Part shown: one piece after another, positions 5,976 through 57,640 of the stretch | How positions within the stretch are numbered: position 1 is the stretch's first letter | Layout of the letters: every line of letters starts with the position of its first letter | Source: a virus | Taxonomy: Duplodnaviria > Heunggongvirae > Uroviricota > Caudoviricetes | Virus record (IMG/VR): IMGVR_UViG_3300045988_154391 | DNA length: 64,000 nucleotides | Strand: one strand, 5' to 3' | The notes under the pieces: model-generated | The model's database searches: none | Told to the model about the DNA's origin: nothing | What the model saw: the letters and a program-made list of their open reading frames with translations, nothing else | Translations under genes and position numbers: made by a program

Positions 5976-5992
5976 AAATTAATTAGAGCAAT
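5976..5992 (-). promoter_or_regulatory. C1 repressor operator upstream of ssb (Op21-like)
   Basis: Plus-strand AAATTAATTAGAGCAAT, one mismatch to the reverse complement of ATTGCTCTAATAAATTT, 20 nt upstream of ssb. Confidence 0.75.
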
Positions 5993-6016
5993 AATGTATA
6001 TCTTTGAAACGTGGCT

Positions 6017-6038
6017 AACAAGTGATTTGCATTATCCT
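6017..6038 (+). promoter_or_regulatory. Late-promoter-like element upstream of lyz
   Basis: AACAAGTGA-N7-TATCCT about 90 nt upstream of lyz; same architecture recurs upstream of prt, pacA, mat-like and the 43317 module. Confidence 0.4.
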
Positions 6039-6125
6039 GTGCCTTCTAAAGGGATCGAGTCAGTCGGTATTGGCGGTGAATGAGTGTTTGTCCTGGAGCG
6101 TAAAAAATTCGCTTATGAGGTCTTT

Positions 6126-6683
6126 ATGAAGGGAAAAACAGCCGCAGGAGGCGGTGCAATTTGCGCTATCGCGGTGATGATTACCATCGTGATGGGTAAT
6201 GGCAATGTGCGAACCAACCAGGCGGGGCTTGAGCTGATTGGTAACGCTGAAGGTTGCCGACGTGATCCATACATGTGCCCGGCGGGGGTATGGACTGACG
6301 GGATCGGTAATACACACGGGGTAACGCCGGGTGTGCGAAAAACCGACCAGCAAATCGCCGCTGATTGGGAAAAGAATATCCTGATCGCTGAACGCTGTAT
6401 TAATCAGCACTTCCGGGGCAAAGACATGCCCGATAATGCCTTCAGTGCAATGACAAGCGCGGCATTCAATATGGGATGCAATAGCTTACGGACCTACTAC
6501 AGCAAAGCGCGAGGCATGCGAGTAGAAACGTCCATCCACAAGTGGGCGCAGAAAGGGGAATGGGTGAATATGTGTAACCATCTCCCTGATTTCGTGAACA
6601 GTAACGGCGTGCCCCTGCGAGGTTTAAAGATTCGCCGTGAAAAAGAACGCCAGCTTTGCCTGACGGGGCTTGTCAATGAATAA
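6126..6683 (+). CDS. lyz: Endolysin (lysozyme) with N-terminal SAR segment
   Basis: MKGKTAAGGGAICAIAVMITIVMG hydrophobic N-terminus followed by a lysozyme-like body; ATG at 6126. Confidence 0.9.
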   Translation: MKGKTAAGGGAICAIAVMITIVMGNGNVRTNQAGLELIGNAEGCRRDPYMCPAGVWTDGIGNTHGVTPGVRKTDQQIAADWEKNILIAERCINQHFRGKDMPDNAFSAMTSAAFNMGCNSLRTYYSKARGMRVETSIHKWAQKGEWVNMCNHLPDFVNSNGVPLRGLKIRREKERQLCLTGLVNE

Positions 6684-6930
6684 ACTCCGGCAGCTCCGCC
6701 GACTTTCGACAATGAAGTTATCGCTGGCGGCGATAGTTTTTGACTCGATTTTCATGGCGGTATATGTGCTCAATGAGACGTGGCCACTGGAACCGCTATT
6801 GTATGCCGGGCTTCGGCTGTGCCTGACATTTTTGAGCATGGCTGCGAGATTGATGCAGCAGAAAGAAACCGCTTCAGATTGTCCACGCCGCGCGGTGCGC
6901 AAATATATGGCACGAAGGCGAAGGCGATAA
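6670..6930 (+). CDS. Small hydrophobic, Arg-rich protein (86 aa) downstream of lyz
   Basis: ORF overlapping the lyz stop; hydrophobic stretches; ends just before a terminator. Coding status uncertain. Confidence 0.3.
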   Translation: MSMNKLRQLRRLSTMKLSLAAIVFDSIFMAVYVLNETWPLEPLLYAGLRLCLTFLSMAARLMQQKETASDCPRRAVRKYMARRRRR

Positions 6931-6943
6931 TAGTTAACGAGAA

Positions 6944-53777: not shown

Positions 53778-53794
53778 AAATTTATTAGAGCAAT
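53778..53794 (-). promoter_or_regulatory. C1 operator (perfect consensus) at the dmt stop, upstream of the tRNA-ban operon
   Basis: Plus-strand AAATTTATTAGAGCAAT, exact reverse complement of ATTGCTCTAATAAATTT. Confidence 0.8.
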
Positions 53795-56373
53795 ATAGCC
53801 ATAACGTCATGAGCAACACCACGAGTGTCTCCCTTACAAGACACAGAACGTCTGGCAAAGAGAGGTTCCACTCTGAAGCCTCTGTCCTGATAAAGTTCTC
53901 TGACGTTTGGCGCGCCACTGTTAGTAATGAGTACCTTTGCACCTCGGCGATGAGCATCCGTCAACAGAGACACCAGGCGTTTTTGCTCTTCAAACTTAAA
54001 GTCATGACCGGAATAGTTCGTGAACCCCTCTGTATTGGGGAGCGGTTCATACGGCGGATCGCAAAAGATGACATCTCCTTCTCCGGCAGCTTCAATCACT
54101 GCTGCAAAATCACCGCATACAAACTCAGACCGCCCTTCCGCACCGAGGAAGGCTTCCATCTCCTGTAATGGGAAATACGGAGTTTTATACTTCCCATAAC
54201 CGACATTGAACTCACCGGCCTGGTTGTAGCGCGTCAATCCGTTAAAACAATGACGGTTCAGGAACAAAAACGCCGCTGCGCGATGTAAATCATCATAGAC
54301 TTGTTTGTTAAACGCATTCCGTACTGCCAAGTATCCCTCCTGGGTGTTGTAGTCCAGGAAAAAACGATGTGCCAGAGTGATAAGTGAATGCTCCTCGCGT
54401 TGCAGAGTCTTGTAAAAGTTAATCAGGTCAGCATTCACATCATTTAGCAGATTTTCCTGGTATCCGGCATTCATGAAGACAGCTCCGCCACCGACGAAAG
54501 GTTCAATCAGGCGCTTCCCTTCTGGCAAATAGCGAAAGATTTGTTCCAGAACACCAAATTTTCCACCGGCCCATTTGAATATGGACCGTTCGAATTCTGC
54601 CGCTGGTTTAACTTTTCGCTCTTTTGTTTCACTTCCTTCTTTCTGCCGACATACGGCCTTAGTAATCCGATCGCCAATCCAGCGCATTACTGGTATTGCC
54701 ATACTATTGCCGATCGCTTTGTAACGCGGTCCGTCAGCTGCAAGCATCGCGGCCTCTTCTTCGCTTAAATCTGGATAGTGATTGCGAAGATATGCCAGTT
54801 CATCTGAATTAACTTTTTTACGCTTTTCCGTCGGGATCAACGTATGCCCATCAGGAAAACCTTGAAGTCTCTCACATTCGACAGGGGTAAGACGGCGAAC
54901 ACTCATCATATGAGGTAAGTAACCATTCTCACCTAATTCGCCTTTTTCAATACTTTTCTGCCCCCCAAAAGATAACGCAACGGCGTCAGCTGTAGCGCGG
55001 GAATCAAGAGTAAAACTTATCTCTTTTTGCCACCCTTTACCTTGCGGTCCAGCATCATCTTTTCGCCCAATTTGTGCATGTTGTAGCGAATACGCAACAG
55101 CTGGTGGGCAGCCTGCATTTGGATTGCTATTAACAGAATTACCTGATCGTAAAGTCGGAGAACATTCAATAGAAACATCTTGTCCATAATCTTTGCAGGA
55201 AAAAGCTACAACTGCATTTTCTTGACCATGGTTACGACCAATAGTATGTGCCAATTCACAATTAACATCAGGATCTTGTGTTCCATGAATAGCCATCACC
55301 GCCAGATGTTCGTGACTTTCTTGTGATCTGGCACGAAGAGTGCCTGCACCTTCACGCCAACTACCAGCACCAGTACTACTGAAAACAGCTAAATCGGTTG
55401 CATCTTTAAAATCTCTGGCCTTGACAGTAGAAGCAGTCTCATCATCAGCATATTCGCCAAATGCAACCATTCGATAAGCACCAACAAGCCCACTTCCGCG
55501 CTGCGCAAAAATCTCTTGGTTACTTGCACCGATTCCGCCAGTATTGTGTGACTGGTTAAGTGTCGGGTGAGGATTTACAGGGTTATCCCAATGGCTCCCG
55601 CTTTTAATGCCATTTCCAACATTTCCGGCAACTTCCTTCCCCTCGCCTCTGCTCGGCGCAATATTCCGGCGCACGCCTTCGAACTCAAAAAGTACCGTTG
55701 CGGGATCGAGGTCTGTTCGAGCACTTGCGACAACAAACACGCGTCGGCGTCGTTGTGCCACTCCGAAGTATTGGGCATCAAGGATTCTCCAGGCCACCTT
55801 TCGCTGCGGTCCATAAATACAACCACACTGCGGCCACTTTGGAACATGGCAACCGGTTTTGCCATCCCACCGCCAGAACGCGTTGCTTTTTCCTGATTCA
55901 GGTCGATCACCTGGTTCAAATGGCACATCTTCTCCAGCCAATCCGGCAAGGAAACATCCGAAGGCGTTATCTGCCGATGACAAGACTCCTGGGACATTTT
56001 CCCAGACGATAACGGCTGGTTTGAGAAATGACTCAGCCCGTTTGTCGTCAATTGCATTTGCAAGCTCCACATACTTTAAAGTTAGCGCGCCACGCTCATC
56101 ATCAAGCCCACCACGTAATCCCGCGATACTGAATGCCTGACAAGGTGTTCCCCCGACGAGCACATCAGGGGATTCGATTTCCCCAGCCAGGACTTTTTTG
56201 GCAAGTTTTGTCATGTCGCCAAGGTTGGCGACATGGGGCCAGCGGTGCGCAAGAACGGCAGATGGAAAAGGCTCGATTTCAGCAAACCACGCCGGACGCA
56301 TACCCAACGGTTCCCAGGCAATACTCGCGGCTTCAATTCCACTGCAAACAGATCCATAGCACAGCTCTTTCAC
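53785..56373 (-). CDS. dmt: Bifunctional DNA methyltransferase: C5-cytosine MTase N-terminal, Dam-like N6-adenine MTase C-terminal
   Basis: C5 motifs ([39 protein letters not shown]) then N6 motifs (FKWAGGK, CDPPYEP); GTG start coupled to the hrdC stop. Confidence 0.85.
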
Positions 56374-57275
56374 TGCTTAGCCTCTCCACCAAGGGCATTT
56401 ACCAGAGCATCAACCAGGCACGAAATTTCACTGGTCAACAGGAAGAAATCTGCGTCCAGTCGCTGCGCTACATCTTCACTATCAATATCAGAGTTCTGAT
56501 CAAGCAATTCATCCGCAAATTTGACGCTGGTAAGGCTGAAGTTATGGTCCAGTGTAAATTTAATGCGGTTCTGCCAGTCGAGTGCCAACTTAGTGACGAG
56601 CTTGCCAGCTTCCAGGTGTGTGGAAATTTCATCGCTTCCCAAATCCTGCTTTTTCACTCGGGCAATACCGCCATCCTCAAGCACTGCCTTAAGTTCTGCC
56701 GCATCCCCCATTTGAAATCCCTGTGGAGCACTACCATCACGTACCCAGTCGGTCAGCGTTAATTCAATGGGATTTTCAACACTCAGGGGAACAACAGGAA
56801 GAGAACCCAGAGACTTACGCATAAGCGCGAGCATATCCTCTGCCTGCCGCGCGCTGGCATTGATATAGATACGTTTAGTTGAACCGTCGTAGATCGCCTG
56901 GATAACAGAAAACTTTGAAAAAGCCCGTGGCAGAAGAGAATGCAGAACTTCGTCTTTCAGGGAGTCCTTCTCTGTTTTCTTCAGTTTACGCGCTTGTTCT
57001 TGCTCAAGTTTTTCAATTTTTTCTTGAATAGCTCGCTGGATAACCGGCGGGGGAAGAATTTTTGTTTCGCGCTTTGCTTCAACAAGGATAAAACCATTTC
57101 CATGCATAGCGATAACTTCGGAATTATCACCAAATGGAGATACAAAACCGAACTTGGCCATATCCTGACTACCGCATGGCGTGAAAAGGATCATTTTCTT
57201 TTTATCTTCTAAGTCGGTCAGATCCGCCTCACGAGAAAGTTTATAAATAGTAATGTTTTTCCAGTGCTTAAACAT
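56370..57275 (-). CDS. hrdC: RdgC-like recombination-associated protein
   Basis: 302 aa from ATG at 57275 (AAGGG SD); RdgC-family sequence. Confidence 0.8.
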
Positions 57276-57615
57276 GTTGTAACCCTTGAATATCAACCAC
57301 AGAAAGCTCGTCTTTGTAGAAAAAGGCCAGGTTGTGGCACCCCCTCGTTTGAGCGTATGAGCTGGGACCAATTTCGTTCTTCCAGACAAATGGCTTCAAA
57401 TCCGTACGGCGAAGCATAAAAACGCGATTTGTTCCGCTCTGATTCCCAATGAGGCAAAAGCCTTCTTTCACCTTGATAGCCTGCAAGTTGTCGAGTTCAC
57501 CGCTGGTTACACGGCTATCGAACTCTTTGCGGCTTATTAGCTCCATCTGCATCTGACGACTCCAAACAAATGCCCATTGAAGGGCGATGGCTGAATGGTA
57601 CCGAAAATACGACAT
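57268..57615 (-). CDS. uhr: Uhr-like ORF upstream of hrdC
   Basis: ORF between the C1 operator and hrdC; no clear SD, so coding status uncertain. Confidence 0.4.
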
Positions 57616-57623
57616 AAAAAACA

Positions 57624-57640
57624 ATATTTATTAGAGCAAT
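57624..57640 (-). promoter_or_regulatory. C1 operator upstream of the uhr-hrdC-dmt operon
   Basis: ATATTTATTAGAGCAAT, one mismatch. Confidence 0.75.

What the first reader, a model, noticed from the sequence alone, without database searches (positions are those of the whole stretch)
5976..57640. A dozen C1-operator 17-mers define the regulon, including an inverted pair flanking a bidirectional terminator
Matches to ATTGCTCTAATAAATTT (0-3 mismatches, core ATTGCTCTAAT always kept) occur at 5976, 18775-18804 (overlapping pair), 19265, 20825, 20908, 24019, 27324, 37463, 39555, 39604, 53778 (perfect) and 57624. They precede ssb, ref, cra-like, coi/c1, the antirepressor-like operon, lpa, the post-pap genes, the tRNA-ban operon and uhr-hrdC-dmt. 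At 39555-39620 two operators face each other across a hairpin terminator, which would couple termination of one operon to repression of the next. The operators at 37463 and 39555/39604 have no counterpart in the P1 operator list I recall.
Basis: partly seen in the sequence, partly recalled or inferred. Interest (0 to 1): 0.5.

Follow-up and report, generated by a model that had tools for sequence, protein, structure and literature searches.

The report
Known P1 C1-repressor operator set

Summary
The window holds 16 matches (≤3 mismatches) to ATTGCTCTAATAAATTT against 0.39 expected. A matrix built from the annotated P1 operators finds 19 sites of at least 15.4 bits; the next best scores 8.5.

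The window is a P1-like phage-plasmid, inverted relative to the P1 reference. Its C1 repressor is 280/283 identical to P1's and its Lxc co-repressor 83/83. Sixteen of the 19 sites map base-for-base onto operators annotated in AF234172.

The claimed novelty fails: 37463 is OpmgT/Op88, and 39604 and 39555 are OpmgRa/Op86a and OpmgRb/Op86b. The "partner" at 18775 is the P2ref −10 box, not an operator.

The hairpin between Op86a and Op86b is real (−13.4 kcal/mol, then a T-run). The composite is exactly 66 bp in lineages whose PmgS is only about 69% identical, with two compensatory pair changes. It looks like a terminator on the gene strand only, overlapped by the predicted pmgR promoter.

Three sites have no annotated P1 operator:
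- 24019 heads an extra C4-RNA/icd/ant cassette.
- 19265 lies upstream of c8; P1 has a one-base variant there.
- 9826 lies inside darB and is weak.

The finding is ordinary and of low interest.

The parts
5976..5992 (-). Ossb / Op21 operator, 19 nt upstream of the ssb ATG
   Evidence: Identical to P1 21015-21031; 27.4 bits; annotated in AF234172.
9826..9842 (-). Candidate operator-like site inside the 5' end of darB, ~130 nt upstream of prt; not annotated in P1
   Evidence: ATTGCCCTAATATATTT, 18.4 bits. Shuffles gave ≥18.4 bits in 3.7% of runs. P1 has a 15.9-bit version at 17166-17182. In 84 viral contigs position 6 is C in 72 and A in 12.
18122..18138 (-).
   Evidence: CATGCACTAATAAATAT, identical to P1 2628-2644; annotated.
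18788..18804 (-). Oref / Op2a operator; the adjacent 18775-18791 is the P2ref −10 box, not an operator
   Evidence: One difference from P1 1962-1978. The 18775 sequence has 6 mismatches and equals P1 1975-1991, which contains the annotated −10.
19265..19281 (-). Operator 16 nt upstream of the c8 ATG; P1 and P7 have ATTGCTATAAT here, and neither annotates an operator
   Evidence: 23.5 bits here against 16.2 in P1. 24 of 27 viral contigs with the same flanks have the intact core.
20825..20841 (-). Oc1e / Op99e operator (cra-cre side)
   Evidence: Identical to P1 94724-94740.
20908..20924 (+). Oc1d / Op99d operator (P1coi; imcA-imcB-coi-c1)
   Evidence: Identical to P1 94641-94657.
21200..21216 (+).
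   Evidence: Identical to P1 94349-94365; 15.4 bits.
21372..21399 (.). Bivalent Oc1ab / Op99ab operator at Pc1: Oc1a 21372-21388 (+) and degenerate Oc1b 21383-21399 (−)
21483..22334 (+). c1 repressor gene
   Evidence: 280/283 aa identical to P1 C1.100.
17010..17258 (+). lxc (bof) co-repressor gene
   Evidence: 83/83 identical to P1 Lxc.
21163..21372 (+). coi, the C1 inactivator
   Evidence: 69-aa ORF at the position of P1 coi.
24019..24035 (-). Operator heading an extra immI-like cassette inserted between pacB and c1; P1 has nothing at this position
   Evidence: TTTGCTCTAATAAATTG, 22.8 bits, with no P1 counterpart here. About 40 viral contigs share the context, in two sequence types.
22367..23944 (-). 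immI-like cassette: isrK-like RNA 23867-23944, C4 antisense RNA 23755-23842, icd-like ORF, ant 22367-23482
   Evidence: Rfam C4 75.9 bits and isrK 60.8 bits. 70-81% nucleotide identity to P1 icd/ant. Pfam ANT and ORF6N domains. The insert is noted in PMC6906374.
27325..27341 (-). Olpa / Op94 operator, 70 nt upstream of lpa
   Evidence: Identical to P1 89904-89920.
37463..37479 (-). OpmgT / Op88 operator, abutting the pap stop codon
   Evidence: One difference from P1 84293-84309, which is annotated 'former Op88'.
39604..39620 (-). OpmgRa / Op86a operator; covers the −35 of the predicted PpmgR promoter
   Evidence: Identical to P1 82152-82168.
39568..39595 (-). Hairpin AAAACGTGATG-TACACT-CATCACGTTTT followed by TT; likely intrinsic terminator of the pmgN-ppp-pmgQ unit
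   Evidence: −13.4 kcal/mol, z −5.7. Flagged by a custom scan on the − strand only. Preserved with compensatory changes in divergent lineages.
39555..39571 (+). OpmgRb / Op86b operator; its A-run is the complement of the terminator T-tract; 14 nt upstream of the pmgR ATG
   Evidence: Identical to P1 82201-82217.
42321..42337 (+).
   Evidence: Identical to P1 79435-79451; 21.2 bits.
43228..43244 (+).
   Evidence: Identical to P1 78528-78544.
53767..53794 (.). Bivalent Obanab / Op72ab operator: perfect Op72a 53778-53794 (−) overlapping Op72b 53767-53783 (+); controls the tRNA-ban operon
   Evidence: Identical to P1 68667-68694. tRNAs at 53037, 52959 and 51040.
57624..57640 (-). Odmt / Op68 operator (uhr-hrdC-dmt)
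   Evidence: Identical to P1 65145-65161.

Best explanation
The window is about two thirds of a P1-like (Punavirus) plasmid prophage, inverted relative to the P1 reference. The 17-mers are the dispersed, asymmetric operators of its C1 repressor. C1, helped by the co-repressor Lxc and opposed by Coi and Ant, sits on these sites at or just downstream of sigma-70 promoters and keeps the early and lytic operons off in the lysogen. Those operons are ssb, ref, mat, cre, coi-c1, lpa, pmgT, pmgR-pmgS, pmgN-ppp, gene 26/pmgL, ban and dmt. This part is established knowledge for P1 and carries over by near-identity of both the sites and the repressor.

At 39555-39620 the pair is P1's Op86a/Op86b. My inferred layout, reading the − strand, is:
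1. pmgQ stop codon.
2. Op86a, whose TTGCTC is the predicted −35.
3. A 12-nt variable spacer.
4. The hairpin, whose 5' arm overlaps the predicted −10 (TAAAAC).
5. A U-tract that is also the 3' end of Op86b.
6. The Shine-Dalgarno sequence and the pmgR ATG.

Transcripts coming from the pmgN-ppp-pmgQ unit would contain the whole hairpin and U-tract and would terminate. Transcripts starting at PpmgR would begin inside the hairpin and escape it. C1 on both operators would block the promoter at the −35 and at about +13 to +29. The terminator and the promoter position are inferred, not shown.

Sub-confidences: regulon identity about 0.95; terminator function about 0.6; exact promoter/terminator nesting about 0.4.
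For: - Enrichment.
- Identity of the element: 93-99% nucleotide identity to P1 over most of the window.
- 16 of 19 sites coincide with protein_bind features 'phage repressor C1' in AF234172. Thirteen are identical and three differ by one base (Op2a, Op88, Oc1b).
- C1 is 280/283 identical, Lxc 83/83, and coi is present.
- Literature: C1 binds 22 dispersed operators with consensus ATTGCTCTAATAAATTT (PMC8546580).
- Hairpin: −13.4 kcal/mol, with 0 of 200 shuffles as stable. The T-run follows on the − strand.
- The 66-bp composite is found in 118 viral contigs. It has exactly the same length in lineages whose PmgS is 69-76% identical. In those lineages the spacer and loop sequences change while two stem pairs change compensatorily (A-U to G-C, G-C to A-U) and others become G-U. 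Overall 97.1% of cells are paired, and 0 of 500 shuffles reached the observed covariation score.
- P1 annotation places the predicted PpmgR −35 in Op86a and the −10 at the 5' arm of the hairpin.
- pmgR is reported as essential and is highly conserved.
Against: - No binding or expression data exist for this particular element. Everything rests on homology to P1.
- The tool's consensus terminator scan did not flag the hairpin, because the T-tail is partly absorbed into the stem.
- The stem has only 4 G-C pairs in 11.
- Five singleton variants break one pair each.
- The two compensatory pairs probably reflect a single ancestral event shared by L059, L400-402 and L403.
- PpmgR is only a predicted promoter with a poor −10 (TAAAAC), and the promoter scan found nothing there.
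- The 9826 site has a base (C at position 6) seen in no annotated operator.
Confidence: 0.85

Rival explanations
1. The hairpin between Op86a and Op86b is a leader structure of the pmgR-pmgS mRNA (an attenuator, stability element or RNase III site), not the terminator of the upstream unit. In this reading transcription starts upstream of the hairpin, for example using the operator core TGCTCTAAT as an extended −10-like element.
For: - The operator core is one base from TGnTATAAT. P1 uses ATTGCTATAAT as the P2ref −10.
- With both operators included, the RNA folds into a 24-pair structure of −26.4 kcal/mol.
- The annotated −10 (TAAAAC) is weak, and the promoter scan finds no site.
Against: - A hairpin followed by a U-run in its own leader would terminate the essential pmgR transcript.
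- The constant 12-nt spacer fits a 17-bp −35/−10 spacing in every lineage.
- The outer stem follows automatically from the two operators being inverted, so it needs no RNA-level selection.
Confidence: 0.2
2. The palindrome works at the DNA level: as a binding site for another dimeric protein, or as a rigid spacer that sets the geometry of two C1/Lxc complexes. RNA structure would then be irrelevant.
For: - The outer-to-outer distance is invariant at 66 bp.
- C1-mediated looping between operators is described for immC. I recall this from the literature and did not check it here.
Against: - Ten variant cells are G-U pairs. They keep the pairing in − strand RNA but break the DNA palindrome.
- The loop sequence and two stem pairs differ between lineages while pairing is kept.
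- A T-run follows the stem.
Confidence: 0.08
3. The motif copies are not repressor sites. They would be chance or compositional repeats, or a generic promoter element.
For: - The window is A+T-rich in its intergenic regions.
- The core resembles an extended −10.
Against: - Sixteen sites against 0.39 expected, and a bimodal PWM distribution.
- Base-for-base identity with operators annotated in P1 from published binding work.
- The cognate repressor is encoded in the window.
Confidence: 0.02

Closest known systems
C1 repressor regulon of bacteriophage P1 (operators Op2a/b, 21, 68, 72a/b, 82, 83, 86a/b, 88, 94, 99a-e; GenBank AF234172; Łobocka et al. 2004)
   Same: - Same 17-bp asymmetric consensus, and the same positions relative to the same genes.
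- Sixteen sites are orthologous. Thirteen are identical and three differ by one base.
- C1 is 99% identical, Lxc 100%, and coi is present.
- The bivalent Op72ab and Op99ab are present.
- The 66-bp Op86a-hairpin-Op86b stretch is identical to P1 82152-82217.
   Different: - This phage has an intact operator core upstream of c8, where P1 and P7 have ATTGCTATAAT.
- It has an additional operator at 24019 heading a second immI-type cassette.
- Its darB-internal site scores better than P1's (18.4 against 15.9 bits).
- Op51, Op53 and Op55 lie outside the window.
P1/P7 immI module (Op51-c4-icd-ant1/2)
   Same: - A C1 operator followed by a C4 antisense RNA (Rfam RF01695, 75.9 bits).
- An icd-like ORF and an Ant protein with the ANT/KilAC domain.
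- The same order and orientation.
   Different: - It lies between pacB and c1, next to immC, not between sim and kilA.
- The C4 sequence differs strongly from P1 c4.
- Ant is 70-81% identical at the nucleotide level.
- An isrK-like leader is detected.
- Relatives RCS47, JL22 and 673R5 show three matching places, which suggests the cassette comes in addition to the canonical immI. I did not inspect those places.
Intrinsic (Rho-independent) terminators overlapped by a downstream promoter
   Same: - A stem-loop and U-run directly after the stop codon of a co-directional gene.
- An upstream A-tract.
- The next promoter is nested so that its transcripts lack the 5' arm.
   Different: - The stem is A/U-rich (4 G-C pairs of 11).
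- Function is untested.
- It is flanked on both sides by repressor operators, one of which supplies the T-tract.

Membership tests
P1-type C1 repressor operators | 17-bp asymmetric sequence matching ATTGCTCTAATAAATTT | tested here: met
   16 sites at ≤3 mismatches. 19 sites ≥15.4 bits with a PWM from annotated P1 operators, next best 8.5 bits.
P1-type C1 repressor operators | Positional orthology to operators defined in P1 | tested here: met
   16 of 19 sites align to protein_bind features of AF234172. Three sites (9826, 19265, 24019) have no annotated counterpart.
P1-type C1 repressor operators | Cognate C1 repressor, with Lxc and Coi, encoded by the same element | tested here: met
   C1 280/283; Lxc 83/83; coi ORF.
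P1-type C1 repressor operators | Site overlaps or closely follows a sigma-70 promoter of the controlled gene | tested here: inconclusive
   True by transfer of the P1 annotation, where most promoters are only predicted. The consensus scan found no promoter at Op86.
P1-type C1 repressor operators | C1 binding and C1-dependent repression | not testable with these tools
   Needs EMSA, footprinting, ChIP, or expression in a c1-ts lysogen.
Intrinsic terminator (hairpin 39568-39595, − strand) | Stable stem-loop directly followed by a U-run | tested here: met
   11-bp stem, 6-nt loop, −13.4 kcal/mol, then a T6 run of which four T's are in the stem. The stock scan missed it.
Intrinsic terminator (hairpin 39568-39595, − strand) | Lies downstream of a co-directional gene end | tested here: met
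   The pmgQ stop is at 39622 and the hairpin begins 27 nt later.
Intrinsic terminator (hairpin 39568-39595, − strand) | Pairing conserved through compensatory change | tested here: met
   Two pairs show changes on both sides and 10 cells are G-U. 97.1% of cells are paired, against 38-72% for slid registers. The compensatory changes are probably one ancestral event.
Intrinsic terminator (hairpin 39568-39595, − strand) | Bidirectional action (U-run on both strands) | tested here: not met
   The + strand has UUUU followed by A's. The custom scan flags only the − strand. The G-U variants would be C-A mismatches on the + strand. No converging gene is present.
Intrinsic terminator (hairpin 39568-39595, − strand) | Transcripts end there | not testable with these tools
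   Needs Term-seq or a reporter assay.
immI-type module (c4-icd-ant) | C4 antisense RNA followed by icd and ant, preceded by a C1 operator | tested here: met
   Rfam C4 at 75.9 bits against a gathering score of 45; similarity to icd/ant; Pfam ANT; operator at 22.8 bits.
immI-type module (c4-icd-ant) | Canonical location between sim and kilA | tested here: not met
   It lies between pacB and c1, as in RCS47.

The most novel reading that the evidence does not exclude
The Op86a-hairpin-Op86b composite may be more than a compact terminator-plus-promoter. It could be a repressor-gated insulator in which one 66-bp element does three things: (i) ends the upstream ppp operon, (ii) starts the essential pmgR-pmgS unit, and (iii) forms a 24-bp double-stranded RNA in any read-through transcript, because the two operators pair with each other. 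That RNA could be processed or degraded. Operator sequence would then be constrained at once by protein binding, by a terminator T-tract and by RNA pairing. Separately, most P1-like phages, unlike P1 and P7, may place c8 and a second antirepressor cassette under direct C1 control. That would rewire the lysis-lysogeny circuit relative to the textbook phage.
Probability: 0.12. Interest if true: 0.4.

Novelty: already known. Interest (0 to 1): 0.15.

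Why it matters
It matters little for discovery. The dispersed C1 operator regulon is textbook P1 biology, and the allegedly new sites are in the 2004 reference annotation.

Three modest points remain useful for people who model or engineer P1-like phage-plasmids, which are common carriers of resistance genes:
- The P1 reference is atypical upstream of c8, where a single base turns an operator core into a consensus extended −10.
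- Many relatives carry a second, C1-controlled C4/icd/ant cassette beside immC.
- The Op86 pair encloses a conserved hairpin that probably separates two early transcription units.

Tried and rejected
- Łobocka et al. 2004 (PMC523184) is not held. I therefore could not check whether a terminator between pmgQ and pmgR is already listed there. No held paper mentions Op86.
- The stock terminator/promoter scan around Op86 found neither the hairpin nor a promoter. A custom scan found the hairpin on the − strand only.
- A genome-contig scan for inverted core pairs gave only two Escherichia hits, both identical to the window, plus four unrelated palindromes.
- My first pattern for the c8 site assumed a wrong spacing to the ATG and wasted a scan.
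- A PmgS-based locus search returned only 99-100% identical relatives. Repeating it with the divergent L059 protein gave the useful lineages.
- Phage D6 has a different gene order after ppp and could not serve as a comparator.
- phiW39 lacks the ant insert.
- The alignment A2 left out the disruptive singleton variants, so I did not count pairs on it. I redid it with all 19 distinct variants (A3).
- Rejected: the reading of 18775-18791 as a second operator. It has 6 mismatches and is the P2ref −10.
- Rejected: the bidirectional-terminator reading.

Full report

Yes. ATTGCTCTAATAAATTT with up to 3 mismatches occurs 16 times in the window. Dinucleotide-preserving shuffles gave 0.39 on average and never more than 2. 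The 11-mer core with ≤1 mismatch occurs 16 times against 1.76 expected.

I built a position weight matrix from the 19 non-degenerate operators annotated in the P1 reference. It gives a cleanly bimodal result: 19 sites between 15.4 and 29.1 bits, and nothing else above 8.5 bits. In 300 shuffles the mean number of sites ≥15 bits was 0.22.

- 27324 should be 27325.
- The "overlapping pair" at 18775-18804 is one operator (18788-18804) plus ATTGCTATAATTGAGCC. That sequence has 6 mismatches and corresponds to the annotated −10 box of P2ref in P1.
- The core is not "always kept": 24019 reads TTTGCTCTAAT.

**2. What is the element?**

Megablast against phage records shows a P1-like phage (Punavirus), 93-99% identical to P1, P7, SJ46, RCS47 and others. 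I reassembled AF234172 from four fetched pieces and aligned it to the window. The window runs backwards from P1 about 27.5 kb through lox (window 20764/20765) to P1 about 59.5 kb, with a few replaced segments.

The repressor gene c1 (21483-22334, +) encodes a protein 280/283 identical to P1 C1.100. The co-repressor Lxc (17010-17258, +) is 83/83 identical. coi is present.

**3. Mapping to the known operator list**

AF234172 carries 22 protein_bind features for "phage repressor C1". These are 20 monovalent sites, and the two bivalent operators Obanab and Oc1ab are also listed as features of their own. PMC8546580 likewise speaks of 22 operators and gives the same consensus. Sixteen strong window sites, plus the degenerate Oc1b, align base-for-base to these features:

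| Window site | P1 operator | Note |
|---|---|---|
| 5976 | Ossb / Op21 | |
| 18122 | Omat / Op2b | |
| 18788 | Oref / Op2a | 1 difference |
| 20825 | Oc1e / Op99e | |
| 20908 | Oc1d / Op99d | |
| 21200 | Oc1c / Op99c | |
| 21372 and 21383 | Oc1a and Oc1b | Oc1b: 1 difference |
| 27325 | Olpa / Op94 | |
| 37463 | OpmgT / Op88 | 1 difference |
| 39604 | OpmgRa / Op86a | |
| 39555 | OpmgRb / Op86b | |
| 42321 | Oppp / Op83 | |
| 43228 | O26 / Op82 | |
| 53778 and 53767 | Obana and Obanb / Op72a,b | |
| 57624 | Odmt / Op68 | |

They are Op88 and Op86b/a, named as such in the 2004 annotation. That includes the fact that the "perfect" site at 53778 is half of the classical bivalent ban operator.

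**4. The inverted pair and the hairpin**

Read on the − strand, which is the coding strand of all local genes, the sequence is:

pmgQ stop – ATTGCTCTAATAATTCC (Op86a) – ATATTTTT – AAAACGTGATG TACACT CATCACGTTTT – TTATTAGAGCAAT (Op86b, complement) – 14 nt with AAGGTG – ATG of pmgR.

- The inner hairpin folds at −13.4 kcal/mol (z −5.7). With the two operators pairing as an outer stem, the 66-mer reaches −26.4 kcal/mol.
- The stock terminator scan did not report it. The likely reason is that four of the six T's pair with the upstream A's, so the remaining tail fails the T-count.
- A custom scan flagged it on the − strand only. On the + strand the stem is followed by UUUU and then A's.
- The stretch is identical in P1.

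To test for constraint, I searched IMG/VR for the two operator arms with a free spacer:
- 118 contigs matched, nearly all spanning 66 bp.
- 93 of the fetched copies were identical to the window, and there were 16 variants of the same length.
- One variant, L059, lies in a phage only about 69% identical in pmgR-pmgS.
- Using its PmgS as a query brought in further lineages, L400-402 and L403.
- All keep the composite at exactly 66 bp, while the 12-nt spacer and the loop differ in sequence.
- On all 19 distinct variants, 97.1% of cells pair, against 38-72% for slid registers.
- Two stem pairs change on both sides (A-U to G-C, G-C to A-U; 6 cells, with 0 of 500 shuffles reaching this). Ten cells are G-U and six singleton cells are unpaired.
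- The double changes are probably one ancestral event, so this is modest support, not proof.
- The G-U cases pair only in − strand RNA. This argues for an RNA function in the direction of the genes, and against both the "bidirectional" reading and a purely DNA-level palindrome.

The P1 annotation places the predicted PpmgR −35 (TTGCTC) inside Op86a and its −10 (TAAAAC) at the start of the hairpin's 5' arm. If that is right, transcripts from PpmgR start inside the hairpin and escape it. Transcripts from the upstream pmgN-ppp-pmgQ unit, itself under Op83, carry the full hairpin and U-run and stop. Op86b would then lie at about +13 to +29. Its unusual A-rich 3' end (3 mismatches) is explained by doubling as the complement of the terminator T-tract.

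This is an inference. The promoter is only predicted and weak, and no transcript ends are known to me. The main rival is that the hairpin is a leader element of the pmgR mRNA. pmgR is reported as essential, and pmgR and pmgS are among the most conserved genes of P1-like phage-plasmids.

**5. Sites without an annotated P1 operator**

(a) **24019-24035 (−), 22.8 bits.** This site lies 4 nt after the pacB stop, in a roughly 1.7-kb insert between pacB and c1 that P1 lacks.
- Downstream on the same strand are an isrK-like RNA (60.8 bits), a C4 antisense RNA (75.9 bits against a gathering score of 45), an icd-like ORF, and a 371-aa Ant protein with ANT and ORF6N domains.
- It is thus a complete immI-type cassette next to immC.
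- The insert with ant is mentioned for pTZ20_1P and RCS47 in PMC6906374, without operator or C4 RNA. It is also annotated in RCS47.
- About 40 viral contigs share the operator and context, in two sequence types at about 99% and 83% identity.
- RCS47, JL22 and 673R5 show three matching places per genome. This suggests, but does not show, that the cassette is extra to the canonical immI.
- The C4 sequence differs strongly from P1 c4.

(b) **19265-19281 (−), 23.5 bits.** This site lies 16 nt upstream of the c8 ATG.
- P1 (16.2 bits) and P7 have ATTGCTATAAT here, and neither annotates an operator.
- Among 27 viral contigs with the same flanks, 24 have the intact core and 3 have the P1 base. The P7-type flank is not covered by that pattern, so the ratio is only indicative.
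- The P1 base creates TGCTATAAT, a consensus extended −10. The same one-base relation holds at P2ref.

(c) **9826-9842 (−), 18.4 bits.** This site lies inside the 5' end of darB.
- P1 has a 15.9-bit version.
- Position 6 is C, a base seen in no annotated operator. Twelve of 84 relatives have the permitted A.
- This could be a decaying or weak site. By chance, ≥18.4 bits occurred in 3.7% of shuffles.

**6. Comparison and verdict**

The finding is the known C1 regulon of P1 in a close relative. All testable membership criteria are met: motif, positional orthology, and cognate repressor with its co-factors. Binding itself cannot be tested here.

The hairpin meets the structural criteria of an intrinsic terminator on one strand but not the bidirectional criterion.

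Novelty is "already known". The extra operators are new members of a known kind at most. Interest is low (0.15). The residual speculative value lies in the triple-duty Op86 composite and in the different wiring of c8 and a second antirepressor in most P1 relatives.

Noticed in passing
window 22367-24035 (− strand): A complete second immI-type cassette sits between pacB and c1: C1 operator, isrK-like RNA, C4 antisense RNA, icd-like ORF and ant. The C4 sequence is very different from P1 c4, which suggests a distinct antisense specificity. The cassette occurs in about 40 IMG/VR contigs in two sequence types.
   Followed up: partly
window 19265-19281; P1 AF234172 1485-1501: The C1 operator core ATTGCTCTAAT is one base from a consensus extended −10 (TGCTATAAT). 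P1 and P7 carry the −10 version upstream of c8, and P1 also does at P2ref (window 18781-18791). Most relatives with the same flanks carry the operator version upstream of c8. Operator and promoter appear interconvertible by a single substitution.
   Followed up: partly
window 18703-18722 (− strand); P1 2043-2070: A strong hairpin (GGCGGCC-ATTA-GGCCGCC, −16.6 kcal/mol) followed by T8 lies between Oref and its promoters and the ref ATG, only about 8 nt before the start codon and with no obvious Shine-Dalgarno sequence. It is either the c8 terminator overlapped by P1ref, which would be the same layout as at Op86, or an attenuator of ref.
   Followed up: no
window 37403-37435 (+ strand): A terminator-like hairpin (−16.6 kcal/mol, then a T-run) on the strand opposite to the pmg genes lies between Op88 and the pmgT start. 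The P1 annotation says this segment matches sequence downstream of hsdR in R124/3 and EcoDXXI plasmids, so it looks like a recombination remnant.
   Followed up: no
window about 30030-37190: The segment downstream of Op88/pmgT has almost no P1 counterpart. It holds a run of − strand small genes of lambdoid type (two Ead/Ea22-like, DUF551, DUF4752 and several with no Pfam hit) in place of P1 pmgU-hot. They are probably co-transcribed from the Op88-controlled promoter. This matches the variable region 'RD-5' of PMC6906374.
   Followed up: partly
window 9826-9842 (inside darB, codons 19-24): An operator-like site lies within the darB coding sequence and is conserved across P1 relatives. Its polymorphic position 6 (C or A) changes the darB codon AGG to AGT (Arg to Ser).
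   Followed up: partly
window 59972-62222, 51121-52541 and 54901-55652: Further segments have no or weak similarity to P1 in the blast map. They lie near the plasmid replication/incA region, between ban and the tRNAs, and inside dmt. I did not examine them.
   Followed up: no
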